This document shows positions 7,843 through 62,877 of a stretch of 64,000 nt of DNA, piece by piece. Numbering within the stretch: the stretch's first letter is position 1; each line of letters opens with the position of its first letter. The notes beneath the pieces were generated by a model that was not told the origin of the DNA, ran no database searches, and worked only from the letters and a program-made list of their open reading frames with translations. Source of the DNA: Scenedesmus sp. PABB004 (lineage: Eukaryota). Position numbers and translations under genes: made by a program. The DNA lies in assembly GCA_014905635.1 (NCBI GenBank), contig JABVCE010000017.1:1-64000 (forward strand), read 5' to 3'.

Positions 7843-10800
7843 TCAGCTGCCCTGCCGCGCCCGCTTGCTCGCCGGCTGCAGCTGGGCCTGCTCCGACCGC
7901 GCCACCAGCACCTCGTCCACGCGGCCCGCCAGCCAGCGCTGCCGCTCCTCTGCGCCGCGCAGCTCTGCCCACTCAAACCAGGGCACCACCACCAGCGAGT
8001 AGCCCCGCGCCACCAGCGCCCAGTTTCTGCGCGCGCGGCGGCAGATGGGCGGGCGGGCAGCGTGTAAGCGCCGCTCACTGAGCGGGCCTGCCTGCTTGTG
8101 GGCGCGCATGAGGGCTGGCCAGCGGAGCGCCGCCGCGGCAGCGCCCGCACCTGAACAGCGTGTCTCCTGTGAGGCCGCGGCCGGGCGTCGTGAAGTGGAA
8201 AGGCCCGTCCGCCTCCACCGCCAGCCGCGCGCCGGCCGCCGTCGTGGCGGTGATGTCGACCCGGCAGGCGCCGTCCGGCGCCGCCGGCTGCTCCATCGCC
8301 GGCGGCGCCGCCCAATCCAGCGGCAGGCGCTGCAGCGCGGCAAACACCTCGCGCTGCAGCTGAGAGGTTGGCTGTTTCTGCGTCGCCTCCAGCGACGCGG
8401 CCCACGCTGCGCGGCAGGCCTCCAGCTGCTGCGGCGCCAGCGCGCCCGCCAGCCCCGGCCTCCCGCTGCCGCCAGGCAGCTGCAGGCCGCAGTCCGTCGC
8501 CCACAGCTGCACCTGGTGCAGCTGGCACAGATCCTCAGGTGCCATGGCACCCCACTGCTCGCTGGCGGCGCGCGCCAGTATCGCCAGCTCGCTTGCGCAC
8601 TGCCGCAGGTCCAGCACCGCCACAGCCCAGCAGGTGTTCGCCAGATCCTGCTCCGGCCAGCTGGTGCCCGCCTGCACCTGCGCCGCCGCCCGCCGCAGCA
8701 GCGGGCCCAGCAGCCGCTCGTCCGCGTGGCCCAGCTTGGCGCACGCCAGGGCCATGTTGGCAAAGGCTTGAGCGCTGCTGTCCGCCAGCAGCCGCTCCAG
8801 CTGAGCCGGCTGCTGCGCCAGTGCCGCGAGCAGCTGGGACGGCAGGTGACGCAGCTGCCCGCACGCCCACAGCATGTTGGACACAGCCTGGGGTGTGGCC
8901 ACGCCCAGCTGCCGCTCCAACGTCACCAGCAGCGGCTGCAGCTGCGTCTGCGGCACCTCGCGGCCCAGGGTGGCCACCGCCCACAGGGTGTTGGCCACAT
9001 CCTGGGGCTTTGCCACGCCCAGCTGCCACTCCAGCGCCGCCAACAGCTGCTCCAGCTGCGGCTGCGGCACCTCGCGGCCCATGGTGGCCACCGCCCACAG
9101 GGTGTTGGCCACATCCTGGGGCTTTGCCACGCCCAGCTGCCACTCCAGCGCCGCCAACAGCTGCTCCAACTGCGGCTGCGGCACCTCGCGGCCCATGGTG
9201 GCCACCGCCCACAGGGTGTTGGCCACATCCTGGGGCTTTGCCACGCCCAGCTGCCACTCCAGCGCCGCCAACAGCTGCTCCAGCTGCGGCTGCGGCACCT
9301 CGCGGCCCATGGTGGCCACCGCCCACAGGGTGTTGGCCACATCCTGGGGCTTTGCCACGCCCAGCTGCCACTCCAGCGCCGCCAACAGCTGCTCCAGCTG
9401 CGGCTGCGGCACCTCGCGGCCCATGGTGGCCACCGCCCAGAGCGTGTTGGCCAGCTCTTGGGGCTTGGCCGCGCCCGCCTGCCGCTCCAGCGCCGCCAGC
9501 AGCTGCTCAAGCTGCCGTTGCGGCACCGCGCGGCCCATGCTCGCCACCGCCCACAGCACGTTGGACACAGCCTGGGGCGAGGCTGCACCCAGCTGCCGCT
9601 CCAGCGCCGCCAGCAGCTGCTCCAGCTGCGGCTGCGGCACTCCGCGGCCCATTTCGGCCACCGCCCACAGCGTGTTGGCCAGCTCTTGGGGGTTGGCAAT
9701 GCCCAGCTGCCGCTCCAGCGCCGCCAGCAGCTGTTCCAGCTGCCGCTGCGGCACCGCGCGGCCCATGCTCGCCACCGCCCACAGCGAGTTGGCCACGTCC
9801 TGGGGCTTTGCCACGCCCAGCTGCCGCTCCAGCACCGCCAGCAGCTGCTCCAGCTGCGGCTGCGGCACCTCGCAGCCCATTTTAGCCGTGGCCTACAACG
9901 TGTTGGCCAGCTCTTGGGGGTTGGCTGCGCCGAGCTGGCGCTCCAGCGCCGCCAGCAGCTGCTCCAGCTGCCGCTGCGGCACCGCGCGCCCCATGGTCGC
10001 CACCGCCCACAGCGTGTTGGCCACGTTTTGAGGCGTGGCTGCGCCCGGCTGCCGCTCCAGCGCCGCCAGCAGCTGCTCCAACTGCGCCTGCGGCACCGTG
10101 CGACCCGTGGTCGCCACCGCCCACAGCGTGTTGGCCACGTTTTGGGGGTTGGCAATGCCCAGCTGCCGCTCCAGCACCGCCAGCAGCTGCTCCAGCTGCG
10201 CCTGCGGCACCTCACGGCGCATGGTGGCGACCGCCCACAGCGCATTGGCCACGTACTGAGGTGTGGCCGCGCCTTGCTGCCGCTCCAGCGCCGCCAGCAG
10301 CCGCTGCACGTCGCCCTGCTCCAGCGCCACGCCAGCCTTGGCCGCGCCGTACGCCGCGCTGGCCAGGGCCTGGGCATTGGCGCCGCGCAGCTGCTCAGGG
10401 GCCAGGAACCGCGCCAGGCAGGCCGTGAGCAGCGGCCCGTTGTAGCCGCACACGCCGGCCGCCCACACCACGTTGGACAGCTCCCGGCAGCGACACGCCT
10501 GCAGGAGCGCCGGCTGCAGCAGCTGCTCCTCCACGCGCCGCAGCAGCTGTTGCGCCGCGGCCTGGGCGGCGCTGGTGCGGATGACGCCGCGCCGCACCCA
10601 CTGGCCCAGCTGCGTGGCCGTCGCCGCAAGGTGCTGGTGCTGCATTTCCGGGCTGCCCGCGTGCTGCTCCGCCAGCTGCCGCAGCTCCGCGAGGGTGGCC
10701 GCCTCCTTGATGGCCGTCATGAGCGCGTCACGGCCCTGTCGGCGGGTGAGGCGTGCACAGCGTCAGGGCCAGGGCTGGCGCAACGGCTCCACCGCACCGG

Positions 10801-10926
10801 CTGGCCCTGCGTGCGACCAAGCACACACACCTTGCCGCCGCCAGGCGCCGCCGCCCGCTGCCAGCCCCGGCCGCCGCCGCTGCCGCCGCCCCTGCCGCCG
10901 CCCCTGGAGCGCTGGGGCCGGCCGCC

Positions 10927-10979
<53 letters not shown>

Positions 10980-11439
10980 CCCTGCCTCGCTCAGGGCTCA
11001 GGCCGCCGCGACCGCGCGCGCTGCGGCCGCCGCCCCGCGCACTGCTGCCACCGCCGCGGCCGCCCCGCGCCGGCTGGCGCCTCCCGCCGCGCCCCCGGCC
11101 TGCGTTGCTGCTGCTGCTGCTGCTGCTGCTCCCGCTGGGCTCACCGCCACCGCCAGCAGCGGCCGCGGCGCACACCCAGACCGGCGTGGCCTCGCGCGGA
11201 GACGCCAGCGGCGGCCGCGGCGCCCTGGCGGCGCCGCTGCTCGCGCGCTGGCCGGCGGGCGGCGCGCAGCACGGCCGGCGGCGCGGCGCGGCGACCGCCG
11301 CGCGGCCTCGGCAGCCCGCCGGCGCCGCTGCCCCTGGGCCGCCGGTCGGCCAGCCGCCGCCGCGCGGCCGCCCCGCCGGGGCGCCGAGGGCGCGCCCGCC
11401 GCCGCTGCTCCCCAGCGCCCGCATCGCCCCTGCCGCCAT
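7843..11439 (-). pseudogene. OPR-RAP protein copy 1 (12 core 38-aa repeats) with an in-frame TAG; exons 11439-10831, 10735-8151, 8026-7843
   Basis: Repeats of the type PQDVANTLWAVATMGREVPQPQLEQLLAALEWQLGVAK. RAP domain VDI...LAVEADGPFHF...GDTLFR|NWALVARGYSLVVVPWFEW. Transit-peptide-like N-terminus and polyQ. The Trp codon of repeat 4 is TAG (9893-9895). Confidence 0.85.
8894..10261 (-). repeat. 12 x 114-bp coding tandem repeat (OPR array)
   Basis: The period is exactly 114 nt. Units 9-11 (9008-9349) encode identical peptides. Confidence 0.95.
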
Positions 11440-12440
11440 GGGCTGCCGGGCGGCGGTGCTGCGGGCGCTCCTAGATCAAGCACCGCACGTGGCCGCCCAC
11501 GCCAGCCGCGCCAGGGCAGGGCGCGCCAGGGCAGGGCTCGCCGCCGGCAGGGCGCGGCGCGGCGCGCCCGCGCCGCTGCGCTGGGCCCGCCTCCCCGCTG
11601 CGCGCCCGGCCGCCCGGGCGGTGGCGGGCGGCAGCAGGCGCGGTGTCAGGGGTGGTCGCGGAGCGCCGGCGGCTGCGGCGGCCGCGGCGGCGCGGGACGC
11701 GCACGCGAGCGGCGGGGCGCTGCTGCTGCTGGCGAGCGGCGTGGGCTGGAGGATGTGGGGCTGGCGCACTGGCACTGGGTTGGGCTGGAGGTGGTCGCCG
11801 CACCGGGCAGAGCGCGCCGCCAGGGCCGTGTGAGCTGAACCGCCGCCGCCCCTCGTCGCGCGCTCCGGCGCGCCAGCGTTTACTCGCGCAGCGCCGCCCC
11901 CCGCTGCTGCCGTGCCCCGGACGCCTGTCGCGGCGCCTCGCCGTCCACCCCGTGCACCCCCGATTAATGTACAAGCAGCGCGCCCAGGCGGCCCTGCCCA
12001 GCGCGCCCGCCCCACGCACTCGCACACCCACACACACACACCAAGCCGCCGCGCCGCGCACGCGCGCGCCGCGGGCGCGCCCGCCACACAGGGTGCCCGG
12101 GCGCGCGCCGCGCCGCGCCGCGCTGTGCGAGCGGCACGGCGCGGCGGAGGGGGCCAGCAGCAATCAACGGGCGCGAGCTGGCGCGGCTGCCGCCGGCCCA
12201 GCCCGCGCGCTGCGCCGCAGCACCGCGCAGGCCCCCAGCCTCGCTCAGCGCTGCGCCTGCACCGGTGAGCAGCAGGCGCCGCTGCCCCGCCGCTGCCCCG
12301 CCGCTCCGCGCCGCCGAGGCGCGGCCCTGCAGCAGCAGGGCCTGCCCCCCGTCAGCGCCGCCGCTGCGCCGCGTCAGCAGCAGGAGCTGGTCTTGCGCGC
12401 CTGCCCGCCGCTCCGCCGCGCCGCCGCGTCAGCGTCAGCG

Positions 12441-13625: not shown

Positions 13626-13663
<38 letters not shown>

Positions 13664-19963: not shown

Positions 19964-21338
19964 CGCGCGAGGGGGGTGGTGCAAGGCGTGCGGGGGTGGA
20001 GATGGCCGCGGGGGCGAGCCGCGGCGGCCGCGGGGCCGGCAGCAGAGAGGCTGCCGCCTGGGGGCGCGCTGCGGCAGTCAAGGGGGGCGGCGGGAGGCCC
20101 GCGCGGCGCCGGGGCCGCCGGCCGCGCGGGGCAGCCGGCGCGGCGGCCGCGCATGCGCAGCGCCCGCCACGCTGCGCCGTGCGGCGGCGGCGCGGCGAAT
20201 AACGGTCGCCGTCGCGGGGGCGCCGGCGGCTGGTGCCGCCGGCCAGCCCCGCGCCGCGGAGGGCACTCGGGGGAGGGGAGGGGCTCGGGGGGCGTTGGGG
20301 AGGGAGGCTCGCCTGCTGTTTTTGGGAGGAACTCTCATCTTTGCGTATGAGTCTGCTTTGCCGCCTGCAAATGCTGCTGTCAGGGGCGCGCGGCGCGGGC
20401 GGCGCGCCGCCCACGGGGCGCCGCCAGCGCGGGCGCCCGGCACTTGGTCTGCCGCGTCGCCGCGCCCCCCTGCGGGCGCGCGGGGCGCGTCGGCGCGCTG
20501 CCAACCACACACACACCACACAGCACCACAAACCACGCCTTGGAGAGCACCGTCACCGGGACACCGCCACCCCAACCACTGCGCACCACTCTGGCGAGGT
20601 TCGCCACGCCTCCACGCGACGCGCCTGCACGCACGCGGCGCGCGCCGCACGCGCGCGCCGTGCGGGGCCCCTCTCTCGCCCCGCGGCGGCGGCGCGGCTG
20701 CGCGGGCAGCCGCGCCGCCGCGCGCGGGCGCATCACTGCGACTGCTCGGGGCCGGCTGCCGCGCGGGCGCGGCGGCGGCGGCCGTCACTAGACACTTGGT
20801 GCACGGCTGCTGCGCAGCGCAGGCGGCCGCGTGCTGCGGGCGCGAGTTGGCGGCTGTCTCCCGCCCCACGTCGCCGCGCTTGGCCTCACCGCCGTCGTTG
20901 CACGTTGAGTTGGTGACGCGACCAGCCGGCTCAGCGCGGCGCCCGGCAGCGATCGATCGATCGGGGTTCGCCGCCGGCGGTCAGAGTCTTGCGCCCCAAG
21001 TGCGTCGCACCGAAGCGACGACCCCCGGCACGGAGCGCGGCAGCAGCAGCGGCAGCAGCAGCGGAGCGCCAGCTTCACGACCCGCCGCCGCCTCCTTCGC
21101 GCCCGCGCCTACGCGCCCGCGGAAGAGCTTTCGTGCCACATTGACCGCCTGAACGCGCCACAGCCGCGCGCACGCGCCACGCAGGCAGGCCGGGGGCGGC
21201 GCCAGTAGCGCGGGGTCGCCAGTGCCGCCGCCGCGCAGGCGCCTCCGCGAGGCCGCGGCGGCGTGCGCTGGTGACGTCTCTGGTGACGTTGCTGGCGACG
21301 TAGTTGGCGTCGCTGGCGAGCCCGGCGCCAGCGGCACC

Positions 21339-23186
21339 ATGAGCGCCCTCGAGGTGCTGCTGGCGTGGCGGCCGGACCAGGCCCTGCGGGCCGACTGGTC
21401 GGCGTGCGGCACGCGCGGCGGCGGCGGCAGCCCTGCGCAACGTCAGGGCCAGGACTGCTGGCCCGAGCACGGCAGCGGCGTCGGCGGCCGCGGCTGGCAG
21501 CAAGCGGCGGCGCCTGGCGGCGGCAAGGTGTGTGTGCTTGGTCGCACGCAGGGCCAGCCGGTGCGGTGGAGCCGTTGCGCCAGCCCTGGCCCTGACGCTG
21601 TGCACACGCCTCACCCGCCGACAGGGCCGTGACGCGCTCATGACGGCCATCAAGGAGGCGTCCACCCTGGCGGAGCTGCGGCAGCTGGCGGAGCAGCACG
21701 CGGGCAGCCTCAACCACATCCACCTGGCGGCGACGGCCACGCAGCTCGGCCAGTGGGTGCGGCGCGGCGTCATCCGCACCAGCGGCGACCAGGCCGCGGC
21801 GCAGCAGCTGCTGCGGCGCGTGGAGGAGCAGCTGCTGCAGCCGGCGCTCCTGCTGGCGTGTCGCTGCCGGGAGCTGTCCAACGTGGTGTGGGCGGCCGGC
21901 GTGTGTGGCTACGACGGGCCGCTGCTCACGGCCTGCCTGGCGCGGTTCCTGGCCCCTGAGCAGCTGCGCGGCGCCAACGCCCAGGACCTGGCCAACGCGG
22001 CGCACGGCGCGGCCACGGCTGGCGTGGCGCTGGAGCAGGGCGACGTGCAGCGGCTGCTGGCGGCGCTGGAGCGGCAGCTGGGCACAGCCAACCCCCAGGA
22101 CGTGGCCAACACGCTGTGGGCGCTGGCAACCATGGGCCGCGAGGTGCCGCAGCCGCAGCTGGAGCAGCTGCTGACGGCGCTGGAGCGGCAGCTGGGCGCG
22201 GCCAAGCCCCAAGAACTGGCCATCACGCTGTGGGTGTGCGGGCAGCTGCGTCACCTGCCGTCCCAGCTGCTCGCGGCACTGTCGCAGCAGCCGGATGATC
22301 TGGAGCGGCTGTTGGTGGCCAGCAACGCGCAAACTCTGGCCAACATGGCCCTGGCCTGCGCCAAGCTGGGCCACGCGGACGAGCGGCTGCTGGGCCCGCT
22401 GCTGCGGACGGCGGCGGCGCAGGTGCAGGCAGACGCCAGCTTGTCAGGGCAGGACCTCGCCAACACCTGCTGGGCCGTGGCGGTCCTGGACCTGCAGCAG
22501 TGCGCAGGCGAGCTGGCGGTGCTGGCGCGCGCCGCCAGCGAGCAGTGGAGCAGCACAGCACCTGAGGATCTGCGCCAGCTGCACCAGGTGCAGCTGTGGG
22601 CGACGGACTGCAGCCTGCAGCTGCCGGGCAGCGGCGGGGTGCCGGGGCTGGCGGGTGCGCTGGCACCGCAGCAACTGGAGGCCTGCCGCGCAGCGTGGGC
22701 CGCGTCGCTGGCGGTGACGCAGCAGCAGCAGCCCGGCCAGTTCCAGTGCGAGGTGTATGCCGCACTGCAGCGCCTGCCGCTGGACTGGGCGGCGCCGCCG
22801 GCGATGGAGCAGCTGGCGGCGCCGGACGGCGCCTGCCTGGTCGACATCACCGCCACGACGGCGGGCGGCGCGCGGCTGGCGGTGGAGGCGGACGGGCCCA
22901 CGCACTTCAGGACGCCTGGCCGCGGCCTCATGGGGGAGACGCTGTTCAGGTGCGGGCGCTGCCGCGGCGGCGCTCCGCTGGCCAGCCCTCATGCGCGCCC
23001 ACAAGCAGGCAGGCCCGCTCACGCGCTGCCGGCCCGCCTGCCGCCGCGCGCAGGAACCGGGCGCTGGTGGCGCGCGGCTACTCGCTGGTGGTGGTGCCGT
23101 GGTTTGAGTGGGCAGAGCTGCACAGCGCGGAGGAGCGGCAGCGCTGCCTGGCCGGCTGCGTCAAAGCAGTGCTGGCGTGGCGGTAG
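21339..23186 (+). CDS. OPR-RAP protein copy 2 (1 core repeat), intact ORF; exons 21339-21527, 21625-22949, 23054-23186
   Basis: Highly similar to copy 1 with the same two intron positions. RAP motifs LAVEADGPTHF and RNRALVARGYSLVVVPWFEW. Confidence 0.85.
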
Positions 23187-42767: not shown

Positions 42768-43765
42768 TCAGACGGCGTGCTCCCCCTCCTCACTCTCCCC
42801 GCCCTCGCCCTCGTCCGAGTCCCCCTCGTCCGTTTCCCATTCAGAGTCAGAGCCGTCGTCGGACCGCTCAGGCTGCGCCCTGATCCACGCGACGATTGCC
42901 TCGTGGCCTTCCTCGGCTGCATGACGCTCACAGAGCGAGCGAAACCACGGGCAGCCGTTGGCGCGCAGCCAGCGCAGCGCCTCCAGCTGCCCAACACATG
43001 CCCCGAAGAGGCACCCACACTCGTCCCACGGCGCGGGCTCGGCCTGCGCGCGCGCCCAGCGCAGCATCTCCAGGTCGCCGCGAATCGCGGCAAAAGTGCA
43101 CACGCGGTCGCCCCAGGGCAGCGGCGGCGTCTGGTCGCGCGCCCAGCGCAGCACCGCCATCTGCCCGTATCTGGCTGCTCCCCAACACACGCCCCGCAAG
43201 TCCAGCCCCTCGCCGCACGCCCACTCCACCACGCTAAGGTGGCCGTGCTCTGCTGCTGTCTGGCACACGCTGTCCATGCGGCAGCCGGCGCCGCGCAGCC
43301 AGGCCAGCCCCGCCACGTCGCCGCACGCCGCGCGTGCCCGCGACAGGCGGCGCTGCTGCTCCTCTGGCCCCTCCCCCACCGCCCGCCAGGCCGCCTGCAC
43401 CGCCGCCAGCGGCAGCTCGGGGCAGCTCGTCCGGATGGCTGTGGCGCCGCGGAAGCGCTCGCGCGCCGCCTTGCAGACCAGCCTGGCGTGCCACGCCTGC
43501 AGGGACGGCGGCAGGAAGCCCAGGACGTGGAGCACGAGGGCCTCGGACAGCTCCGGCACCGGGCTGCTGGCACGGTGGCGAGAGCGGGCGGGACGTGGCG
43601 GCGAGCAGTGAGGCGGCGCTGGCTGAGGCCGCTGGACCGTGCGCAGCGCCCGCCTGGCCAGGCAGCACCACCCAGCGGGCGCCAGCAGTGGCAGCGGCGG
43701 CGCGCCCACCTCGCCTCCTCCGCGAGCGTCAGACCGGCGAGCGAGACATCTGCCGGCGAGGACAT
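42768..43765 (-). CDS. Ankyrin-like repeat protein (GCPW-type) with F-box-like N-terminus and acidic tail; 2 exons
   Basis: LSEALVLHVLGFL...ARLVCK (F-box-like); repeats AAEHGHLSVVEWA, AAIRGDLEMLRWAR, GQLEALRWLRANGCPW; intron ~43564-43709. Confidence 0.8.
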
Positions 43766-44712
43766 GGCACCGACTGGGCCTGCAGGGAGCAGGGAGCAGC
43801 AGGCGGCGCGCCGGCAGTGGGTGAGAGCGCGCCAGCGGCGTGAGCGCAGCAGCAGCGGGCCCACCCCCGCCCCGGCGGCGCGGCGCAGCGCCGGGCCTGC
43901 CAGCGGCGCCGGGGAGCGCAGTCACGGCGGAACAAGCGCCACGCCCGCCCGCCCTCCGCGCCGCAGCCGCCCGCCGCCTGAACCAGGCGCCGCGCGGTGC
44001 TGCCCTCGCCGCCTGCCCCGCGCACCGAGCTCGCCTGGCGCTGCGCTGGGTGACACGGCCGGACCGTCGTGCGCCCGCAGGTCGGCGCCCCGCCTGGCCA
44101 GGGGCGCGCCGCGGGCGGGAGGCGGCCGGCGCCGCGCGGCAGCGGGCGGGCGCTGGGCGGCGCGGCGTGCGGGAGGTGCGGGCTGCGGCCGGCGTGCGTG
44201 TGCGTGCTGGCAAGGGGGGCAGAGGGCGGCGGCTGTGGGCTGCCGGGCGGCGCGGGTGGCCTCCCCGGCGGGCGGCTGGCCGGGCGGGGCCTTGGGGGGC
44301 CCTGGGCGCTGCACCGCCCGCCGCACGCCGCACGCCGGGTACTGGGCGTGTGCGCCTGACGACGGGGGGCCCACCGCGGCGACCACGTGCCGCCACCAGG
44401 ATTGACGCGGCGCGCGTTCCACGCGCGCTCTGGGCGGCCGCCGCTTGTCGCGTCGCAGCGACGTCGGCGGCGCCGGGAGGTGGGGTTCACGCTCGGGCCC
44501 GGCGCGCGGCGCCGGCCGGTCTCAAATCAATTCAACCCAGCACACCGGCCGGCGGTCAAAACACGCGGGTTCACCATGGCACACAGTCAGCACTCAACCG
44601 TCACGCCCACCCCCGCACAAAACCTGGAATGCCAGTCAGCCCGGCACGCGCCGCGCCCGCGGGGCTGGGCCTGGGGCTGGGGCGGCCGCGGCGCGGCGCG
44701 CGCGTGGCGCGC

Positions 44713-47700
44713 TCAGCCCGCGCTCGTGCCGCCCGCCGTGGCGGCGGTCTCGTCATAATCCAGCCCGCCAATGAAGTCACTGCTGGGCGGCGGCGGCGGG
44801 GCCCGGCCGCCGCCGCTGCCGCTGCCGCCGCGAGCGCGCCCGCGCCGCGCGTTGGGCGGCGGCGGCGGCGGCGGTGCGGCGCCGCAGGTGACCTGCAGCG
44901 GCACGCGCAGCTCGCGCGTGAGCCCGCGCGGCTGCACGCCCCCTGCGGCTGCAGGCGGGCGCTGCTGAAAAACTGCGGGCGCGCGGGGCGGAGCGCGTGG
45001 GCGGGCGGCGGCGGGTCGTTGGGTGCTCGCAGCGGCGGCGCTCGCAGCGGCCGCGCCCCGCGCCCCGCGCGCCTAGCCGTCGCACCTGGCTGTCGCCGCA
45101 CTGGCTGCGTGAGAAGGGCCCAAACTTCAGCGTGTAGTTCAGCTGCCGGCTGCCGCAGAGCCGCGTTTGGTTGGCGAGCGCGGAGCCGTTGACCAGCGTC
45201 GGCGCGGGCGGCAGCGCGGCGGCGGGCAGGCCTGGGCGCGCGCGTGCGGGCGGGGCGAGGCGGGGCGGGTGGTGGGCGATGCGCACGGTCGCGGCGGCAG
45301 GGGCGGTCGCGGCGAGGAGAGCCGAGGCGACGCGCGGCGGTGCGCGCGCACCCGCGAGCTGCTGCGACCGCGGCAGCGGCAGCCCCGCGCCGTCGCGCTC
45401 GCGCGCCGGCGGCAGCAGCAGGCCCGCCGGCGCGGACGGCTCGACGCCAAACGCGTCGCTCAGCAGCGCGCACTCGCCGAGCACCACGCGCGCCGCGCCG
45501 CCGCTGGGGCCCAGGTGAAGGGCGCGGCGGCGCCAAGGAACGACTTGCCGGCGAGGCTCGCCGGCGCGAGCCCGGGCGTGCCCGCGGGCGGCATAACGAC
45601 CACCGGCGCGAGCAGCCCGGGCGTGGGGTTGGTGGCGTTGAACGTGAAAGCGCAGAGGATCGTGCCCGGCGCCGCGGGCAGCGTCCAGCCGCCGCCCTTG
45701 CGCGCCGCCGAGGGCGGGCAGGCCGCCTTGACGAGCACCGGCGCCTCGGCGCCGGCGAGCGAGACCGCGACGCGCACGTCGGCGACGGGCAGCGCCGCGC
45801 CGCCGGGCGCGCCCGCCGCGACGGTGCCGGCGAGGCCGTACAGCGCGTCGGCGACGCCGGGGCGGCGCGTGGCGGTGAGCGTGAACGCGACCGCCACGCC
45901 CGCGGCGCCGCCCGCGGGCAGCGACAGCGCCGCCGCGCCCTCCTCGACGGACGACGCCGGAGGCAGCGGCGCGCCGCCGCTCGCGACCGCGGCGGCCGCC
46001 GCGGACGCGCTGCCGGCGGCGCCGCGGCCGCGGGGTCGGGCGTCGACTCGGCGACGCGCGTGGCGCGCGGGGCGCCCTTGGCGTCGAGGGCCGCCTTTGA
46101 GAGCTCCCAGGTGTGGATGGTGAAGTTGAGGGGCCGGAGGTCTCGTATCGACGCGACCGCACCGTCGGCCCCGCGGGGCAGCCGGTGAAGGTCACGCTGC
46201 CCGCCGCGAGCGCCGCGTCGTCGGCCTGCGGCGACTCCTGCGGCTGCAGCGTCGCGAGCGAGAGCACCTGCGGGGGCGGGGCGGGGCGACGGGGGCGTGG
46301 GCCAGATGTGGGGCGGGAGAGGGGCGAGGCTGGGTGCGCACGCAGAGACTCAAACAAAGAAGAGTCGAGCCCGGGTCGAACCTGGTGCGTGCCGCACTGG
46401 TCGCTCTTGACCGGCCCCGCCGTGACGCGATAGGCCCACTTCTTGTCGGCGCACACGCGCGCGTCGCGCGGAGGGCCCGGCCCGCCGCCGACCGGCGGCG
46501 CCGGCTGCAGCACGTTGGCCGCGCCGCCGCCGGCCGCCGGCGGCGCGCCGCCCGCGCTCACGCGCGCGCACGCGCCGACCTCCTGCGCCGCGCTGTCCTC
46601 GAGGTCGAACGACGCGGACTTTGAGAGCGAGCCCTCCGCCTCGGCCGTCCCGCTGCGCCCCGGCGCGGCGACGAGCGACGCGCGCACCGTGCCGCGCGCG
46701 TCGCGCGGCGTGCCCTCGGGCAGCGTTATGACAAACTGGCAGCTGATGCCGGTCGGCGACTTGGCCTCACCCGCCGGCAGCAGCGTCTCGCCGCGGGCGT
46801 CGCGCGGGCAGGTCACGCGCCCCGGCACGCCGCCGCGCGCCGGCGGCGCGGCGCGCGCCGCGTCCGCGTCGCGCGCCGGCGCGTCCGCGGCCTCCTGCAG
46901 CGCCGGCGCGGCGCCGCCGCCGCCGCCCGCGCGCGCGCCCGGCGGCAGGGCGGTGAGGTCGGCGCCGCCCGCGCCCCAGCCCGGCGGCGGCGCGTCGCCG
47001 CCGCCGTCAATCCAGGGGAACAGCTCCAGCCCGCTCAGGCCGGCCGCCTGCGGCGCCGACGCCTCCAGCAGGCCCCGCGCCGCGGCGGGCCGCGCCGCCT
47101 TTGCCGGCGAAGCCGCCTTCCCCGGCGAAGCCGCCGGCGCGCTGCGGCGCTGCCGGCTGTCGGTCGCGGCAGCGCCGCCCGGCGACGACGGCGGCGGGGC
47201 GCCCGCGCCGCCGTAGTCGTCGCCGCCCTCGTCCGCGGGCGCGGGCGGGGCAATGATGGCCTCAACCGTCACCTCGCGCACCACAAAGGGCCCGCCGCTG
47301 GGGTTGAGCAGGATCACGTTGCCGGCGAGGCGGCGGCTCGTCGACTCGACGCGCCGGCTCGCCTGCGCGCGCGAGAGAGAGTGGGAGAGAGAGAGAGAGC
47401 GAGAGCCCCAGCGTGAGCGCGTGCGGCGTGTGCGGCGGCGGTGGCGGGGCGGGCGGGCGAGGCGCCTCGGCCATGTCGGGCACCGGCGCACCGCACCTGC
47501 ACCTCCATCAGCAGCACGCCGCGCTCGCCCCACTTGGCGCTGCCCTTCTCGGCCTTGGCCGTCGCGGTCACGGCCCAGGCAAAGCGCGTGATCGCGGTCG
47601 CGCTGAGCTGGCCCATGCTCACGCGCAGCACCTGCGGCGCGGCGGCGGCGCCGCGGCGCGGGTGGCGCGCGCCGCGCGGGCGGCCGCGTGGCCGCGGCGC

Positions 47701-50700
47701 GGCAAGCTGGGCGACGCGCGGCAGTCACCACGCCGCACCTGCACCGCCGGGTTGTCCTGCTTGGGCGGCGCCGGCGCCGGCGCGGCGCCCCCGCCGCGGC
47801 GCCGCAGCTCGCCGGGTTGATGGGCAGCACCGCGGCCGTGCGCGCGGTCGCGGCCGCCGCGACCGCGGCGTCGGGCGCGCCCTGCGGCCGCACCGAGGCG
47901 GTGAGGATCGCCTGCGGGCGGGGCGACGGGAGGGGCGGGCGGCGTCAGCCGCCGTCGCACGGCCGCGGCCGCCGGCGAGCCCCAGCACGCCGCGGCGCGC
48001 GCGCCTGGTGGTCGCCGCAGGTGCTCCACGACGCGGGGGCAAAGTCGGCGGCAAAGGTGAAGCTCGCGTCCTCACACATGATCTTGCCAGCACTCGGGAC
48101 GAGCGTCCCGGTCAGCGCGCCGACGGGGCCGACCACGCGCGCCGCCGCGTCGGCGGGCGACACCGCCGCAAAGCCGCGCGCGCACGCGCCGCCGAGGGCC
48201 ACGCCCGCGCCGCGGCCCGCCGACGCGGCGGCGCCGCCGGCGAACGCGAACGGCGTCGCCGCGCTGCCGCCGCCGCGCGCGCCGGCCGTGCCGGCGGCGG
48301 TGACGCGGCCGGGGATGCGAGCGGTGACGGTGCCGTCCGCCGCGCTGATCAGCGGCACCCAGAAGCTGCGGGGGACACACGTGGCACACGGCGGGCGGGC
48401 GGGCGGCGGCGGGGCGCTGAGACCGCGCGCGCGCGTCAGGCGTGCGACGCGCCCGGCGCGGCGTGGCGCAGCGCGGCGCGGCGCGGCGCGGCGCGGGCTG
48501 CGGACGCGCCTGCAGGTGATGCTGCCGCCGCCGGGGACGCGCAGCGGCACCGCGGCGCGCGCCGTGCGGCCGGCGCAGTCGAGCGCGACGGACTTGGCCC
48601 CGTCGCCGACGCCGCCGACGACCGACAGCTCCAGCCCCGGCAGCGTGACGACCTGGCGGTTGGGGTTGGTCACCACGACCGTGCCGGCGACGTACGGCCC
48701 CGCCGCCGCGGGCGCCTTGGAGAAGGCGACGGTGAACGCGACGCGCCCGGGCGACCGGCCGTCGCCCGGCAGCGCGAGCGCGGCGGCGGGGTCGCTTGAC
48801 GCCGCGACCGACCAGAGGAAGCTGCTGCTGCTGTCGCCGCCCACACGGTACCCGGCGGCCGAGGCGACCTCGACGCTCACCGCCGACAGCGCCGCGGCCG
48901 GCGGCGGCGGCGGCGGCGCGGCGCCGGCGGCGGCGCCGGCGGCGGCGCCGTCCCCGCCGGCGGGGCGGCGCCGCCGCGTCTCGGCCGCCGGCGGCCGGGC
49001 GGCGCCGGCGCGGCCGGGCACGGGCGCGGACGCGGGGGGCTGGCCGCCGCCGGTCGCCGGCGCGGGCGCCGACGGCACGGGCGTCGTCGGGGCCGGCGCG
49101 CCGCCGCCGCTCGAGGTCGGCGGCGGAGGCGGCGGCGGCGCGCCCGTGGGCGCGGGCGTGCCGCCCGGCGCCGGCGCTGCGGCCGCGGCGGCGCGGCGGT
49201 TGGGGCGGCGCGCGGCGGTCGGGCGCTGCCGCGCGCGTGCGTGCGCGCACGCGCGCGGCCCCGCCTGGACGCACCTGGCTGCGGCACCGGCGCGGGCACT
49301 GGCGTGATTGCTGGGGTGCCCGAGGGACCCTGAGCGCGCGGGGACGGGGGCAGGGAGGAGTTGAGGTAGAGCCGCAGGTGAGCGCGCGCGCGGGGCGGGG
49401 CCTTGGACGGTCGCGCGAGCCCGCTCCGCGCGAGCGCCGCGCGCGCGAGCTCCGCGCGCACGCGCGGCCGCCCGCGCTCACCGGGACGGGCACTGGGACG
49501 GGCACCGGGACTGGCGCCGGGACCGGCACAATGACTGGCGTCCCGCCGGGCACCGGAACCGGCACCGGAACGGGCGTCGGCGTTGGGTTCGGCGTTGGCG
49601 TCGGCGTTGGATTCGGCGTCGGAGTGGGCGTGGGCGTCGGCGTTGGCGCCACGCCCGGGGGCGGCGGCGGCGGTGGAGGCGGCGGGCTCGGCGGCGGCGG
49701 GCTCGGCGGCGGCGGCGGCGGCGGCGCGACCCAGCCCGGCGGGTTGGGCGGCGGCGGCGGCGGGCTCGGCGGCGGCGGCGGCGCCGGGGGCTCGGCGGCG
49801 GCGGGGGCGGGCTCGGGGGCGGGCTCGGGGGCGCCTGGTTGGCGCAGCTGGTGATGGCGACCTTGACCTCGTTGATGGGCAGCGTGGTGGCCGGCTGCGC
49901 CGACGCAATCGGCGTCAGCGAGGGCTGCGTCTGGATCTGCGCGCCCGGGCGCGCGGCGGCGGCGGCAGGCACGCGGGCGGGCGGGGGCGGCGGTCGGTCG
50001 TAGGGGGAGGCCCATTTTTGGCGCGCGTGACGCTCCGCGGCCCCGCCCCTCGTCAATCCATGCAGATCCGCGCACCAGGAAGCTGCTGCAGGAGGTCTGC
50101 GTCGTCGAGGGCAGCGTCATGACCCAGCTAAAGTTGGCGGGGCCGCAGATGCGCGTCCCCGGCGACCCGCTCTCGGGGCGGCGCCCCGTGTCGGGCGGCC
50201 ACGCCTCCCAGGTCGGCTGCGTCGGCGTCGTCGCCTGCAGCACCGCGTCGCGCACAAACGCGCAGTCGCCGGCGAGCTGCGGCCGCGCGCGCGCGTGGGC
50301 GTGCGTGTGGGAGCGGCGACAGGTGGCGCCGTCGCTCGGCGAGCGGCGGCGGCGGCGGTTTCGCGCGCCTCCCCCGTCCCCGCGCGCGTCGCCGCACCCC
50401 GGCCGCCGTGTTGCCGCCGACCGGCTGCGCCAGGTCAAATTGGAAGTTCAGCGTGTTTGAAAGGTCGTTGCCGCCGCCGGCGGCGCCGTACGAGACGTTG
50501 GCCTGGCGCCGCGGCGGCGCGCGCGGCGGCGGGCGCGGGCGGGGTCGGCGACGGTGCTGCTGGGCGCAGCGCGCTCGCGTGCCCCCACGCACACACACAC
50601 GCCGCCCCCCGCGCGGCGGCGGCGCGCCTGCAGCTCAAAAACGCGGTTGGACGACCCCTCGCCGAGCAGGGAGCCGTTGATGCCCGCCGACTGGCTGCCA

Positions 50701-51515
50701 AAGGGGTTGGGGAACGTGAACGTGCAGTTGACGGTCGCGTTGGCCCACGCGTTGGGCGGCGACCCCGCCGCGTCGCTGACCTGCAGCAGCTGCGCGTAGG
50801 GGCAGTTTGCGGCCGCGGCGAGGAAGGTCGTGGTGCCCTGCCGTATGCCCACGGTGACGGCGTTCCACACGACCGGCGTCGTGCTGCCGGGCAGGCGGCG
50901 GAGCAGCACGTTGCCGCGCAGCGCGCCGGTGAAGGAGCTGACGATGCGCGTCGCGTTGAGCGTGTACAGCACCTGCACGCGCGTGGGTGGTGCGCGTGGG
51001 TGGTGTGCGCGTTGCGCGTGCGGCCCCACGGCACGGAGGGTCAGGGCGAGGGCGGTCGGCGGGGCGCCGGCCGGCGGCCGCCGCTCGCGCGCCGCGCCGC
51101 GCCGCCCGCGCGCGTCGCGCAGCAGCAGCCCCGGCGCCCGCCCCGCAGCCCCTCCCGACCCCGGCCGCGGCGCCGCGGCGCCAGCGCCACGCCGCTGCCC
51201 GCGCGCCTTGCGGCTCTCAAAGTAGGGGTAGCTGATCGTGCCGGTCGTGCCGTTGCTGGTCTGCTGGAGGCCCCACTGGAAGCGCACGTCGGCGACCTTC
51301 TCCGTCAGCGGCTCGATCAGCTGCACGTCCACCAGCGCCGCCCGCGCCGGCGCCGCGCCGAGCGACGCGGCGATGACGAGCGCCGCGAGCAGCAGCAGCT
51401 GCCGCGGCGGCAGCCGGCGGCGGCGGCGCGCTGGAGCCGGCGCCGCTCCTCGCTGACCGCGCGGGCGGCACGGCACCGCGCGGCAGGGGGCCGGCGTGCT
51501 GCCCTGTGACGCCAT
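44713..51515 (-). CDS. Large secreted, probably cell-wall hydroxyproline-rich glycoprotein with ~4 repeated globular modules; many exons
   Basis: Signal peptide LLLLAALVIAASLGAAPARA; SPPPP, (PT)n and (PV)n linkers at ~49480-49830; recurring F/H-x-W and Cys motifs. Contains at least one apparent indel (~46155). Confidence 0.65.
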
Positions 51516-52230: not shown

Positions 52231-54705
52231 TCACTCACTCCCGCCGCCGGCGAGCCGCACGCGCCGCGTCCGGCCGCTCGCCCCCGCCGCGGGCGAGGCA
52301 GGCGGCGGCGCCGCCCGTGCCCCCGCCGCAGCTGCCTGCTGCTCGGTACCGCCGTCGCTCAGCTGCCGCCGCGCCCGCTTGCGCGCCTGCGGCGCCGCCT
52401 GATGCGCGCCGGGCGGCCGGCCGCGCAGCGCCGCGTCCACGCGCCCCGCCAGCCAGCGCTGCCGCTCCTCCGCGCTGCGCAGCGCGTCCCACTCAAACCA
52501 CGGCACCACCACCAGCGCGTAGCCCCGCGCCGCCAGCGCCCGGTTCCTGCGCGCGCGGCGGCAGCAAAGGCAGGCGGGCGGGCAGCGTGTGAGCGGGGCC
52601 TGCCCGCGGGCGCGCGTGTGGGCTGGCCAGCGGTGCCCAGCCGCGGCAGCGCCCGCACCTGAACCGCGTCTCCCCCGTGAGGCCGCGGCCGGGCGTCCTG
52701 AAGTGCGTGGGCCCGTCCGCCTCCACCGCCAGCCGCGCGCCGCCCGCCGTCGTGGCGGCAATGTCGACCAGGCACGCGCCGTCCGGCGCCGCCAGCTGCT
52801 CCATCGCCGGCGGCGCCGCCCACTCCAGCGGCAGGCGCTGCAGCGCGGCAAACACCTCGCACTGAAACTGGCCGGGCTGCTGCTGCTGCGTCGCCGCCAG
52901 CGCCGCCGCCCACGCCGCGCGGCAGGCCTCCAGCTGCTGCGGCGTCAGCGCGTGCCCCAGCCCCGGCCTCCCGGCACCGCCCGGCAGATGCGGGCCGCAG
53001 TCCGTCGCCCACAGCTGCACCTGGTGCAGCTGGCGCAGTTCCTCAGGTGCCATGGCACCCCACTGCGCGCTCGCAGCGCGCGCCAGCACCGCCAGCTCGC
53101 CTGCGCACTGCCGCAGGTCCAACACCGCCACAGCCCAGCACGTGTTGGCCAGCTCCTGCCCTGGCCAGCTGGCGCCCGCCTGCACCTGCGCCGCCGCCCG
53201 CCGCAGCAGCGGGCCCAGCAGCCACTCGTCCGCGTGGCCCAGCTGGGCGCAGGCCAAGGCAATGTTGGCAAGGGCTTGAGCATTGCTGCCCGCCAGCAGC
53301 CGCTCCAGCTGAGCCGGCTGGCGCACCAACGCTTCGAGCAGCTGGGACGGCAGGTGACGCAGCTGCCCGCACGCCCAGAGCGTGTTGGCCACGTTTTGAA
53401 GCGTGGCCGTGCCCAGCTGCCGCTCCAGCGCCGCCAGCAGGTGCTCCAGCTGCGGCTGCGGCACTCCGCGGCCCACTTTGGCCACCGCCCACAGCGCGTT
53501 GGCCACAGCCTGGGGCGTGGCCGCACCAAGTTGCCGATCGAGCGCCGCCAGCAGCTGCTCAAGCTGCCGCTGCGGCACCGCGCGACCCATGGTCGCCACC
53601 GCCCACAGCGTGTTGGCCACGTCCTGGGGCTTGGCCGCGCCCAGCTGCCGCTCCAGCGCCGCCAAGAGCCGCTGCACGTCGCCTTGCTCCAGCGCCACGC
53701 CAGCCTTGGCCGCGCCGTGCGCCGCATTGGCCAGGTTCTGGGCGTCGGCGTCGCGCTGCTCAGGGGCCAGGAGCTGCGCCAGGCAGGCCGTGAGCAGCGG
53801 CCCGCCGTAGCCGCACACGCCGGCCGCCCACACCACGTTGGACAGCTGACGGCAGCGGCACGCCTGCAGGAGCGCCGGCTGCAGCAGCTGCTCCTCCACG
53901 CGCCGCAGCAGCTGCTGCGCCACGGCCTGGTCGGCGCTGGTGCGGATGACGCCGCGCCGCACCCACTGGCCCAGCTGCGCGGCCGTCGCCGCCAGGTGGA
54001 CGTGGTTGAGGCTGCCCGCGTGCTGCTCCAGCAGCTGCTGCAGCCGCTCCACGCTGTCTGCGGCCTTGATCCGACTGGTGAGCTGCGCAGGGTGAAGGCC
54101 CTGTGATAAGCAGACGAGCGAGGCGCGCGGCGTCAGGGCCGGGGCCAGGGCGCGCAGCGGCTCCGCTGCACCGGCGGCCCCTGCGCGCGATCCACGCAGA
54201 CGCACCTTGCCGCCGGGCGCCACCGTGCGCTGCCAGCCCGGGCCGCCACCGCTGCCACAGCCGCTGCCGCCGCCCCTGCCGCGCTGGGGCCGGCCGCCCT
54301 CCTGCTGCTGGTGCTGCTGCTGCTGTCCCCTGCCTCGCTCAGGGGTCAGGCTGCCACCGACGCGGCCGCCCCGCGCCGGCTGTCGTCCCCGCCGCGCCCC
54401 CGGCCTGTGCTGCTGCTGCGGCTGCTGGGCTCACCGCCACCGCCAGCAGCGGCCGCGGCGCACACCCAGACCGGCGTGGCCTCGCGAGGAGACGCCAGCG
54501 GCGGCCGCGGCGCCCTGGCGCGGCCGCTGCTCACGAGCTGGCCGGCGGGCGGCGCGCAGCACGGCCGGCGGCGCGGCGCGGCGACCGCCGCGCGGCCTCG
54601 GCAGCCCTCCGGCGCCGCTGCCCCTGGGCTGCCGGCCGGCCAGCCGCCGCCGCGCGGCCGCCCCGCCGGGGCGCCGAGGCCACCGCTGCTCCCCAGCGCC
54701 CGCAT
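52231..54705 (-). CDS. OPR-RAP protein copy 3 (2 core repeats); exons 54705-54206, 54100-52659, 52546-52231; 1-nt frameshift near 54386
   Basis: Homologous to copy 1, including exon 1 and the upstream flank. RAP motif LAVEADGPTHF...RNRALAARGYALVVVPWFEW. Confidence 0.8.

Positions 54706-62846: not shown

Positions 62847-62877
<31 letters not shown>

What the first reader, a model, noticed from the sequence alone, without database searches (positions are those of the whole stretch)
8894..10261. Candidate recognition code: variation clusters around the PQ of each repeat
Residue 3 across the 12 units reads Y,N,N,E,D,E,A,E,D,D,D,D. It co-varies with residues 4-5 (VA/LA/VS) and with the residue before PQ (T/N/K/S), giving recurrent types K-PQDV, N-PQEL, T/N-PQNV and S/T-PQAV that also appear in copies 2 and 3. 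The second helix is almost invariant. Inference: these are specificity residues analogous to the PPR code or TALE RVDs. Identical units 9-11 point to very recent unequal crossover.
Basis: partly seen in the sequence, partly recalled or inferred. Interest (0 to 1): 0.75.

Follow-up and report, generated by a model that had tools for sequence, protein, structure and literature searches.

The report
Green-alga OPR RNA-binding repeat array
This is a green-alga gene for an organelle RNA-binding protein of a known kind, built of twelve near-identical 38-residue helical repeats whose third residue varies as a base-reading position would; this copy is interrupted by a stop codon.

Summary
The gene (11439-7843, three exons, 1125 codons) encodes an octotricopeptide-repeat (OPR) protein with FAST_1 and RAP domains. 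It is one of at least four clustered paralogues; NCBI names the protein that copy 2 encodes as Scenedesmus sp. PABB004. The idea of an OPR code is already in the literature, but I found no published code.

Across 41 homologous arrays, residue 3 is the most variable position within an array (0.74). It is never Lys or Arg in 355 units. It sits in the first turn of helix A, on an exposed face that is otherwise conserved, and it co-varies with the residue before PQ. That fits a specificity residue but does not prove one: no model coordinates were available, so groove orientation was not measured.

Inside this window the recurring "types" are largely explained by descent: a 228-nt higher-order repeat and blocks shared between paralogues. 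Verdict: new member of a known kind, moderate interest.

The parts
7843..11439 (-). Copy 1 gene: three exons (11439-10831, 10735-8151, 8026-7843 including the TGA stop), GT..AG introns at 10830-10736 and 8150-8027; 3375 nt = 1125 codons, open except for one TAG
   Evidence: Splice sites and frame read. The junctions mirror those of the NCBI protein P0001 encoded by copy 2.
10831..11439 (-). Exon 1: the N-terminus is rich in Arg/Ala/Gly/Pro/Ser and has no acidic residue for about 80 residues, like an organelle presequence. It is followed by RGG-rich and poly-Gln low-complexity sequence.
   Evidence: translation. No targeting predictor was run; only a weak Pfam hit.
10262..10489 (-). Two degenerate OPR-like units ahead of the canonical array
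   Evidence: upstream translation in register. The equivalent unit of copy 2 scores 77.7 with the unit matrix.
8894..10261 (-). Twelve canonical 38-residue OPR units. Helix A = residues 1-13, loop 14-19, helix B 20-32, loop 33-38.
   Evidence: AlphaFold2 secondary structure (pLDDT 96-98 over the array).
9893..9895 (-). In-frame TAG replacing the invariant Trp9 of unit 4. It lies within a patch of 7 private substitutions in codons 8-12 and 16, of which 5 are GC>AT.
9008..9463 (-). Units 8-11: recent tandem copies differing by 0-6 nt
   Evidence: distance matrix.
9350..10033 (-). Units 3-8: a two-unit (228-nt) higher-order repeat in which xV-type units alternate with EL-type units
   Evidence: identity 0.875 at lag 228, against 0.816 at lag 114 and 0.827 at lag 342. 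The synonymous CAA codon of Gln2 travels with the N3 and E3 units.
8693..8884 (-). FAST_1 (PF06743) match over the degenerate C-terminal helical repeats
   Evidence: E=1.2e-14, 54.4 bits (cut-off 27.4), residues 333-396 of the 601-residue ORF.
8151..8269 (-). First half of the RAP domain (end of exon 2)
   Evidence: By homology to P0001 residues 483-505, where RAP (PF08373) scores 35.9 bits against a cut-off of 24.2. Beta strands are predicted there.
7846..8026 (-). Exon 3: second half of the RAP domain
   Evidence: PF08373, E=7.7e-4, 19.8 bits, profile positions 25-51 of 58. This is below the cut-off because only half the domain is present.
21339..23186 (+). Copy 2 (equals NCBI protein HT031_004813, 548 aa): one canonical unit at 22093-22206 (N-PQDV) followed by a K-PQEL terminal unit
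   Evidence: encoded letter for letter in three pieces.
52240..54100 (-). Copy 3: two canonical units at 53629-53402 (K-PQDV, T-PQAV) and a T-LQNV terminal unit. In the public annotation it is fused into a 2808-residue gene model.

Best explanation
The array is the RNA-binding solenoid of a nuclear-encoded OPR-FAST-RAP protein of a sphaeroplealean green alga. It belongs to a tandem, fast-evolving paralogue cluster that resembles the Chlamydomonas NCL family.

Shown:
- Each 38-residue unit folds into two 13-residue helices joined by 6-residue loops.
- The units stack into an alpha-solenoid, followed by a FAST_1-type helical region and a RAP domain.
- Residue 38 is the N-cap of helix A and residue 3 sits in its first turn.
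- The array grows and shrinks by unequal crossover.
- Copy 1 carries an in-frame stop.

Inferred:
- The solenoid binds single-stranded organellar RNA along the exposed face of helix A (Gln2, residue 3, Asn6, Trp9, Ala10, Thr13).
- The invariant residues of that face give generic contacts.
- Residue 3, drawn mostly from E/D/N/A, modulated by residue 38 of the preceding unit and slightly by residue 4, sets the preference of each unit.
- The RAP domain then processes or destabilises the bound transcript.

Copy 1 is therefore either a recently disabled gene or a mis-called base, and its 'code' is best read as a family property.
For: Family and fold:
- FAST_1 matches at 54.4 bits. RAP matches in copy 2 and in exon 3 of copy 1.
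- 347 homologues at E<=0.001; 100 of the 120 listed carry RAP, and all 16 NCBI/UniRef-named ones among those 120 are Sphaeropleales.
- AlphaFold2 model: pLDDT 90.9, pTM 0.87.
- Best structural matches are RESC proteins, Chlamydomonas mitoribosomal OPR protein mL115 (7pkt_O, E=3.6e-10), Toxoplasma and Polytomella mitoribosomal helical-repeat proteins, and ASA2. mL115 is also the only sequence match in the PDB (E=4.2e-8).
- mL115, mL116 and mL117 hold single-stranded rRNA 3' ends in their inner groove (PMC8660880, passages).

Residue 3:
- It is the most variable position within arrays in 41 independent homologous proteins (203 units): 0.74, against 0.56 for the next position (38) and about 0.07 for positions 2, 6, 9 and 10.
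- Its alphabet is E54, A45, D40, N33, G12, H9, S5. It has 0 K/R in 355 units, although K, Q, T and V are single-step neighbours of the codons used (codons).
- On a helical wheel it lies about 129 degrees from the hydrophobic direction. The other exposed helix-A positions have mean variability 0.12, against 0.40 for exposed helix-B positions.
- The coupling 38(n-1)-3(n) ranks first of 147 nearby position pairs (z=3.99). E3 follows K in 52 of 61 cases, against 61 of 165 for other residues (p=7e-11).
- The 59 homologues with at least 4 units carry many different residue-3 strings; two pairs are identical.

Selection and literature:
- Conserved codons have pN/pS 0.29 against pS 0.21, which indicates past purifying selection.
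- The OPR literature expects one primary specificity position plus the three positions just upstream (PMC13126933, figure legends only).
Against: - Groove orientation was not measured because no coordinates were returned. The alignment to mL115 is too degenerate to transfer contacts.
- The copy-1 array is acidic (pI 4.9, net charge -9), whereas the solved OPR-RNA contacts are described as mainly Lys/Arg to phosphate.
- The 38-3 coupling is the same size as ordinary helix-B surface couplings (32-33 z=3.92; 32-36 z=3.28). It could be a Lys-Glu salt bridge or an N-cap/N3 capping effect.
- Within the window, the types are inherited blocks. There is a 228-nt higher-order repeat, a linked synonymous codon, and a 51-residue block identical between copy 1 and a fourth paralogue.
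- E3 mostly follows K family-wide but follows N in 2 of 3 units here.
- Copy 1 has a premature TAG. Copy 3 has a 1-nt deletion in its exon-1 homologue, and copy 2 lacks the presequence-like region.
- No RNA target, expression data or organelle localisation is available.
Confidence: 0.55

Rival explanations
1. Residues 3 and 38 vary for local structural reasons rather than for recognition. Residue 38 is the N-cap and residue 3 the N3 position of helix A, so K-E salt bridges and capping-box pairings (T/S/N with D/N) compensate for each other at a solvent-exposed edge. Under this reading RNA binding, if any, is not read out unit by unit. It would be charge- or shape-driven, as in the mitoribosomal OPR proteins.
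For: - The secondary structure places residue 38 immediately before helix A and residue 3 in its first turn.
- The coupling is i,i+3 and dominated by K-E (52 of 61).
- It is no stronger than the helix-B i,i+1 to i,i+4 couplings.
- The paper on 7PKT describes the contacts as primarily charge interactions.
- The residue-3 alphabet is close to the one-step mutational neighbourhood of the Asp codon GAC (codons seen).
Against: - K is a poor N-cap yet is the commonest residue 38 (100 of 203 units).
- Neutral drift should also admit K, Q, T and V at residue 3, which are nearly absent (0 K/R in 355 units; 1 Q and 1 V among the 226 units tabulated).
- The rest of the exposed helix-A face is three times more conserved than the exposed helix-B face, which points to a functional surface around residue 3.
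Confidence: 0.25
2. Copy 1 is a dead or dying gene. Its long array ballooned by unconstrained unequal crossover, and the pattern of 'types' is only a record of block duplications with no present function.
For: - In-frame TAG at the invariant Trp of unit 4, inside a patch of 7 private substitutions, 5 of them GC>AT.
- Copy 1 was not returned as an annotated protein in either the near-length or the longer-length search.
- Units 8-11 are almost identical.
- 228-nt higher-order repeat.
- Paralogue flanks evolve at dN/dS 0.5-0.95.
- Copies 2 and 3 also show possible defects.
Against: - Apart from the TAG, all 1125 codons across three exons stay open with intact GT..AG junctions.
- Conserved codons show pN/pS 0.29.
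- Copy 1's flanks are not more diverged than those of copies 2 and 3.
- The stop could be an assembly error or a strain polymorphism; no reads from the source were available.
- The family-wide signal at residue 3 does not depend on this copy.
Confidence: 0.35
3. The array is a protein-protein interaction scaffold, as many TPR, HEAT and ARM solenoids are. On this reading the variable residues tune partner binding, not RNA.
For: - Acidic, Gln-rich surface (pI 4.9).
- Importin-alpha and AP-2 solenoids appear among the weaker Foldseek matches.
- ASA2, an OPR-like protein, is a structural subunit of Polytomella ATP synthase (6rd4_2).
Against: - The best structural and sequence matches are RNA-associated (RESC, mitoribosomal OPR/HPR proteins).
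- The array is fused to FAST_1 and RAP domains, which mark organellar RNA-metabolism proteins (PMC5449608 listing, abstract only).
Confidence: 0.07

Closest known systems
Chlamydomonas NCL (NCC1/NCC2-like) OPR-RAP family
   Same: Both have a central block of highly conserved OPR units (7-12 in NCL) plus a C-terminal RAP domain, tandem paralogue clusters and rapid diversification. Single substitutions in NCC1 and NCC2 created new chloroplast mRNA targets (PMC8635915 passages; PMC8226300 passages).
   Different: The NCL orthogroup is reported as specific to the genus Chlamydomonas and absent from Volvox. Here the named relatives in the near-length search are all Sphaeropleales, and no Chlamydomonas protein is among the 120 best hits. 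Unit number ranges from 1 to 12 among neighbouring paralogues. There are no functional data. No phylogeny with NCL sequences was made, and the primary NCL paper (Boulouis 2015) was not available.
PPR proteins and the PPR code
   Same: Both are helix-turn-helix repeats forming an RNA-binding solenoid. In both, the candidate determinants are a polar residue early in helix A and the last residue before the next helix A, drawn from a restricted polar alphabet without Lys or Arg (PPR code as summarised in PMC8635915).
   Different: The unit is 38 residues, not 35. There is no Pfam PPR match. The coupled pair here is 38 of unit n-1 with 3 of unit n; residue 3 does not co-vary with residue 38 of its own unit. 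No target alignments exist to derive a code.
TALE repeats with repeat-variable diresidues
   Same: Both have near-identical tandem units in which variation concentrates at very few positions, and arrays that are reshuffled by recombination.
   Different: TALEs are bacterial DNA binders with 33-35-residue units and a variable pair in the inter-helix loop (recalled, not tested here). In this array a second variable cluster exists (13/17/21), and helix B varies across the family.
Mitoribosomal OPR protein mL115 (PDB 7PKT chain O) and related HPR/FASTK-type proteins
   Same: mL115 is the only significant PDB sequence match (E=4.2e-8) and a top Foldseek match (TM 0.56-0.58). It binds a single-stranded rRNA 3' end in its inner groove.
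   Different: The mL115 repeats are degenerate. It is a structural ribosomal protein, and its RNA contacts are described as mainly electrostatic.

Membership tests
OPR (octotricopeptide repeat) proteins | Tandem degenerate repeats of 38-40 residues | tested here: met
   114-nt period, 12.6 copies, no indels. In homologues, 283 neighbour spacings are exactly 38 residues; the next commonest value (40) occurs 7 times.
OPR (octotricopeptide repeat) proteins | Each repeat forms a pair of antiparallel helices that stack into an alpha-solenoid | tested here: met
   AlphaFold2 pLDDT 90.9, with regular 13-residue helices and 6-residue loops. Foldseek matches OPR/HPR solenoids, including 7pkt_O.
OPR (octotricopeptide repeat) proteins | PPPEW motif at the start of helix B | tested here: not met
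   Units have V-P-Q-x-Q-L at positions 18-23: the first Pro is kept and Trp is replaced by Leu. A 2025 review lists PQPQM-type variants among accepted Chlamydomonas OPR units and finds the motif unrecognisable in about a quarter of them (PMC12691811 passages), so this is a variant form rather than an exclusion.
OPR (octotricopeptide repeat) proteins | Organelle targeting and binding of organellar RNA | not testable with these tools
   Only a presequence-like, acid-free N-terminus in exon 1 and in Raphidocelis homologues. No predictor, localisation data or RNA data.
FASTK/RAP-domain proteins | FAST_1 (PF06743) helical region followed by a C-terminal RAP domain (PF08373) | tested here: met
   FAST_1 scores 54.4 bits against a cut-off of 27.4. 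RAP scores 35.9 bits against 24.2 in copy 2. The RAP half in exon 3 of copy 1 scores 19.8 bits. 100 of the 120 listed homologues carry PF08373.
Chlamydomonas NCL family | Membership of the Chlamydomonas-specific NCL orthogroup (chromosome 15 cluster) | not tested
   No NCL sequence was compared. No Chlamydomonas protein is among the 120 best near-length hits. The orthogroup is reported as genus-specific. The architecture and clustering are the same, so it works like an NCL but is probably an independent expansion.
PPR proteins | 35-residue PPR motifs recognised by Pfam PPR models | tested here: not met
   No PPR family among the Pfam matches up to E=0.1 or E=0.001. The unit length is 38.
Repeat proteins with a per-unit recognition code (PPR, PUF, TALE type) | Variable residues line the ligand-binding groove and changing them changes specificity | not testable with these tools
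   The structure tool returns no coordinates. There is only indirect support from the helical wheel and conservation pattern.

The most novel reading that the evidence does not exclude
This sphaeroplealean OPR-RAP family could be a natural 'consensus' OPR scaffold with a nearly one-residue code. Residue 3, with four main letters (E, D, N, A), would specify the four bases one unit per nucleotide, and residue 38 of the preceding unit would act as a modifier. Because the rest of the unit is almost invariant, the unpublished OPR code could be read directly from these arrays and used to build programmable RNA binders.
Probability: 0.2. Interest if true: 0.7.

Novelty: new member of a known kind. 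Interest (0 to 1): 0.4.

Why it matters
OPR proteins are the main sequence-specific regulators of organellar gene expression in green algae. No recognition code for them is in print in the searched library. The phrase 'OPR code' occurs in only one relevant paper, as a citation of a 2019 thesis. A 2025 review states that the RNA interaction code of the related HPR proteins and its relation to the RAP domain are uncharacterised.

This family has unusually uniform units with one outstanding variable position. That gives a clean natural data set and an obvious design for synthetic-array tests. It also shows that NCL-like clustered, fast-evolving OPR-RAP expansions are not confined to Chlamydomonas. 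For this particular locus the value is lower, because the copy is interrupted by a stop codon and its internal pattern mostly reflects duplication history.

Tried and rejected
- Whole-genome search: no genome is held for this window.
- Earlier findings of the scan: nothing found by place or by words.
- Reads: no RNA holder is listed. Only two metagenome DNA runs hold a small share of the sampled words (0.07 and 0.04). Laid on 9700-10300, they gave short contig pieces, mostly under 95% alike. No listed piece spans 9893-9895, so there is no verdict on the TAG or on expression.
- hmmsearch with a 12-unit profile gave only 50 full-length units among 531 domain hits. I replaced it with an ungapped position-matrix scan.
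- Boulouis et al. 2015 (NCL family) is not held, by DOI or by PMC id. The Jarrige 2019 thesis was not seen. The figures of PMC13126933 that mark the expected OPR specificity position are not held and its text gives no position number, so I could not map that position onto residue 3.
- The alignment to mL115 is too degenerate to decide which helix lines the groove.
- Model coordinates are not exposed, so solvent exposure and groove orientation were inferred from a helical wheel only.
The same distances were then computed from coordinates and gave no clear one-to-one orthology of units (nearest distances 9-14 nt).
- Runs of identical residue 3 in neighbouring units are not enriched family-wide (59 of 234, against 52.6 +/- 4.9 in shuffles).
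- Considered and rejected: the 1262-residue plus-strand ORF 8045-11833 and the other overlapping ORFs are by-products of 74-80% G+C. Only the minus-strand frame has homologues and domains.
- The Pfam matches to VMAP-M8 (42.9 bits) and DUF1601 (29.3 bits) lie on the repeat units themselves and were not pursued.
- Papers on OPR-RAP clusters in Sphaeropleales: none found.
Full report
**What is there**

The window has 73-83% G+C throughout, and no genome is held for it. Tandem Repeats Finder reports one outstanding array at 8864-10305: period 114, 12.6 copies, 87% matches, no indels, score 1981.

Read on the minus strand from 10261 to 8894, it gives twelve in-frame 38-residue units that all begin with Pro-Gln.

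Units 9 and 11 are identical in DNA. Unit 10 differs from them by one synonymous base, and unit 8 by 5-6 bases. Units 1-7 differ from each other by 12-25 bases. Recent unequal crossover is therefore well supported.

Unit 4 has TAG (9895-9893) where every other unit has the invariant Trp9. This splits the frame into ORFs 10720-9896 and 9880-8075. The stop sits in a patch of 7 substitutions private to that unit (codons 8-12 and 16), 5 of them GC>AT.

**The gene**

Using the splice pattern of the paralogue annotated by NCBI, copy 1 has three exons: 11439-10831, 10735-8151 and 8026-7843. The introns have GT..AG ends. The total is 3375 nt = 1125 codons, open apart from the TAG.

Exon 1 encodes an N-terminus rich in Arg/Ala/Gly/Pro with no acidic residue for about 80 residues, followed by RGG and poly-Gln tracts. 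This looks like an organelle presequence, but no predictor was run.

The other domains are:
- After the array come degenerate helical repeats that match FAST_1 (PF06743, E=1.2e-14, 54.4 bits against a cut-off of 27.4).
- The C-terminus is a RAP domain split by the second intron. Exon 3 alone matches profile positions 25-51 (19.8 bits).
- The intact domain of copy 2 scores 35.9 bits against 24.2.

**Relatives and identity**

A search with the 601-residue ORF found 347 proteins at E<=0.001. Of the 120 listed, 100 carry RAP. All 16 named by NCBI or UniRef are Sphaeropleales: Scenedesmus sp. PABB004, Scenedesmus sp. NREL 46B-D3, Raphidocelis subcapitata, Monoraphidium minutum and Tetradesmus obliquus.

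The best hit, P0001 (HT031_004813 of Scenedesmus sp. PABB004), is encoded letter for letter by copy 2 of this window in three exons. That names the organism.

The window holds three paralogues:
- Copy 1 has 12 canonical units.
- Copy 2 (21339-23186, plus strand) has 1.
- Copy 3 (about 54100-52240, minus strand) has 2.

A fourth paralogue, P0121, has 5 canonical units and lies mostly beyond the right end of the window. Copy 1 itself was not returned as an annotated protein in the near-length or the longer-length search.

**Structure**

An AlphaFold2 model of the 601-residue ORF with a 60-sequence alignment is confident (pLDDT 90.9, pTM 0.87; 96-98 over the array). Each unit has the same layout:

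| Element | Unit residues |
|---|---|
| Helix A | 1-13 |
| Loop | 14-19 |
| Helix B | 20-32 |
| Loop | 33-38 |

So residue 38 is the N-cap of helix A and residue 3 is in its first turn.

Foldseek's best solved matches are trypanosome RESC proteins, Chlamydomonas mitoribosomal protein mL115 (7pkt_O), Toxoplasma and Polytomella mitoribosomal helical-repeat proteins, and Polytomella ASA2. mL115 is also the only significant sequence match in the PDB (E=4.2e-8).

The 7PKT paper describes these as OPR proteins that hold single-stranded rRNA 3' ends in a positively charged inner groove (PMC8660880, passages).

The protein is thus an octotricopeptide-repeat (OPR) protein with FAST and RAP domains. This is the architecture of the Chlamydomonas NCL proteins, which have 7-12 OPR units plus RAP, in tandem paralogue clusters (PMC8635915 and PMC8226300, passages).

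**Testing the 'code' idea outside the window**

I scanned the 120 homologues with an ungapped matrix built from the 12 units and recovered 427 units. 283 neighbour spacings are exactly 38 residues.

In the 41 proteins with at least 4 units (203 units), I measured the fraction of unit pairs within one protein that differ at each position:

| Position | Within-array variability |
|---|---|
| 3 | 0.74 |
| 38 | 0.56 |
| 32 | 0.54 |
| 28 | 0.53 |
| 20, 21 | 0.47, 0.46 |
| 4 | 0.44 |
| 2, 6, 9, 10 | about 0.07 |

Residue 3 uses E (54), A (45), D (40), N (33), G (12), H (9) and S (5). It is never Lys or Arg in 355 units, whereas residue 38 is basic in 166 of them.

On a helical wheel, the exposed face of helix A comprises residues 2, 3, 6, 9, 10 and 13. 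Without residue 3, their mean variability is 0.12, against 0.40 for the exposed positions of helix B. Residue 3 is thus a hypervariable, alphabet-restricted position inside a conserved exposed surface, which is what a specificity residue looks like.

The 59 homologues with at least 4 units carry many different residue-3 strings, though two pairs are identical.

**Co-variation**

I used 226 consecutive unit pairs and permuted within proteins. Residue 3 co-varies with residue 38 of the preceding unit (mutual information 0.49 against 0.34 +/- 0.036; 0 of 2000 permutations reach it). It co-varies weakly with residue 4 (p=0.005). It does not co-vary with residues 5, 7 or 13, with residue 38 of its own unit, or with residue 36 of the preceding unit.

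Among 147 pairs of variable positions within 12 residues, the 38-3 pair ranks first (z=3.99). Pairs 32-33 (3.92) and 32-36 (3.28) on helix B come close behind. E3 follows K in 52 of 61 cases, against 61 of 165 for other residues (p=7e-11).

The coupling is real, but it could equally be a Lys-Glu salt bridge or an N-cap/N3 capping effect.

**Why the pattern inside the window is weaker evidence than it looks**

Units 3-8 form a two-unit higher-order repeat. Identity is 0.875 at lag 228, against 0.816 at lag 114 and 0.827 at lag 342. The synonymous CAA codon of Gln2 occurs only in the N3 and E3 units.

The fourth paralogue carries K-PQDV, K-PQEL, K-PQEL, S-PQAVS, K-PQEL and shares a 51-residue identical block with copy 1 units 6-7. 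The recurrent types are therefore largely inherited blocks, not independent recurrences.

They are also not strict. Unit 8 is K-PQEL, and copy 2 has N-PQDV and K-PQEL.

'The second helix is almost invariant' holds only approximately, and only for this copy. Position 21 has 1.73 bits here, and helix B is the more variable helix across the family.

**Selection and state of the copies**

Among the distinct units of copy 1, pS is 0.24 and pN/pS is 0.55 overall. The conserved codons have pN/pS 0.29. The seven variable codons give 1.24, but that set was chosen after the fact.

The non-repeat flanks of the three copies differ by pS 0.07-0.16, with dN/dS 0.5-0.95 in every pair. This means fast protein evolution in all copies, and copy 1 is no outlier.

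Possible defects also exist in the other copies. Copy 3 has a 1-nt deletion relative to copy 1 in its exon-1 homologue. Copy 2 shares homology with copy 1 only from about 45 nt before the exon-1 donor, so it lacks the presequence-like region.

The copy-1 array is acidic (pI 4.9, net charge -9). Units across the family are near neutral on average.

**Literature and novelty**

The idea that OPR units carry specificity residues is not new. PMC13126933 marks one 'primary determinant' position plus the three positions upstream in its OPR logos and cites a 2019 thesis on 'the OPR code'. I saw the figure legends only, and no position number is given in the text.

The phrase 'OPR code' occurs in one relevant paper of the searched library. 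A 2025 review says that the RNA interaction code of the related HPR proteins and its relation to the RAP domain are uncharacterised. The same review quotes a Chlamydomonas OPR unit that begins PQDVSN, so the motif seen here is shared with Chlamydomonas.

NCL genes are reported as genus-specific to Chlamydomonas. I found no paper on OPR-RAP clusters in Sphaeropleales. The primary NCL paper was not available.

**Verdict**

The object is a known kind of protein, OPR-FAST-RAP and NCL-like, in a lineage where it has not been described.

The reading of residue 3 (with 38) as specificity-determining is the best-supported mechanism, at about 0.55. It remains unproven because groove orientation, RNA targets and expression could not be tested. 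This particular copy carries a premature stop.

Noticed in passing
window 42771-58949 (-): The public protein P0122 (2808 aa, named tyrosine--tRNA ligase 1) maps as one gene model across this whole stretch. It joins a Tyr-tRNA-ligase-like gene (58949-55212), OPR-RAP copy 3 (54100-52240) and further downstream exons. This looks like a chimeric annotation of several genes.
   Followed up: partly
window 62461-64000 (-): Only residues 1270-1481 of P0121 (1481 aa, flagged as the window's own) map here. Its OPR part (5 canonical units) must lie beyond the right end of the window, so the paralogue cluster extends past the window.
   Followed up: partly
window 54080-54720 (-) versus 10700-11460 (-): Copy 3 has a homologue of copy 1's presequence-like exon 1, but with a 1-nt deletion plus several in-frame indels, so the frame breaks. 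Copy 2 (21000-21660, +) is homologous to copy 1 only from about 45 nt before the exon-1 donor onward and lacks that region.
   Followed up: partly
window 10930-10978: Perfect trinucleotide tract (CTG on the plus strand, 16.3 copies, 100% matches) that encodes a poly-Gln run in exon 1 of copy 1.
   Followed up: no
window 8894-10261 (-), unit positions 1-3 and 19-21: Both helices of every unit start with Pro-Gln-x, and the x is variable in both (positions 3 and 21). This gives an internal pseudo-symmetry of the 38-residue unit (18 + 20 residues).
   Followed up: partly
window 9008-9463 (-), unit position 32: Units 8-11 have Trp instead of Arg at position 32 on the exposed face of helix B. It is a single change spread by the recent duplications.
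   Followed up: no
601-residue ORF 8075-9880 (-), residues 87-147: The repeat units match the bacterial Pfam family VMAP-M8 (PF19969, 42.9 bits against a cut-off of 27) and DUF1601 (PF07671, 29.3 bits against 25). This hints that these families contain OPR-like helical repeats.
   Followed up: no
window 13627-13661 and 1857-1938: A 35-nt homopolymer C run and a (CTCC)x20 microsatellite.
   Followed up: no
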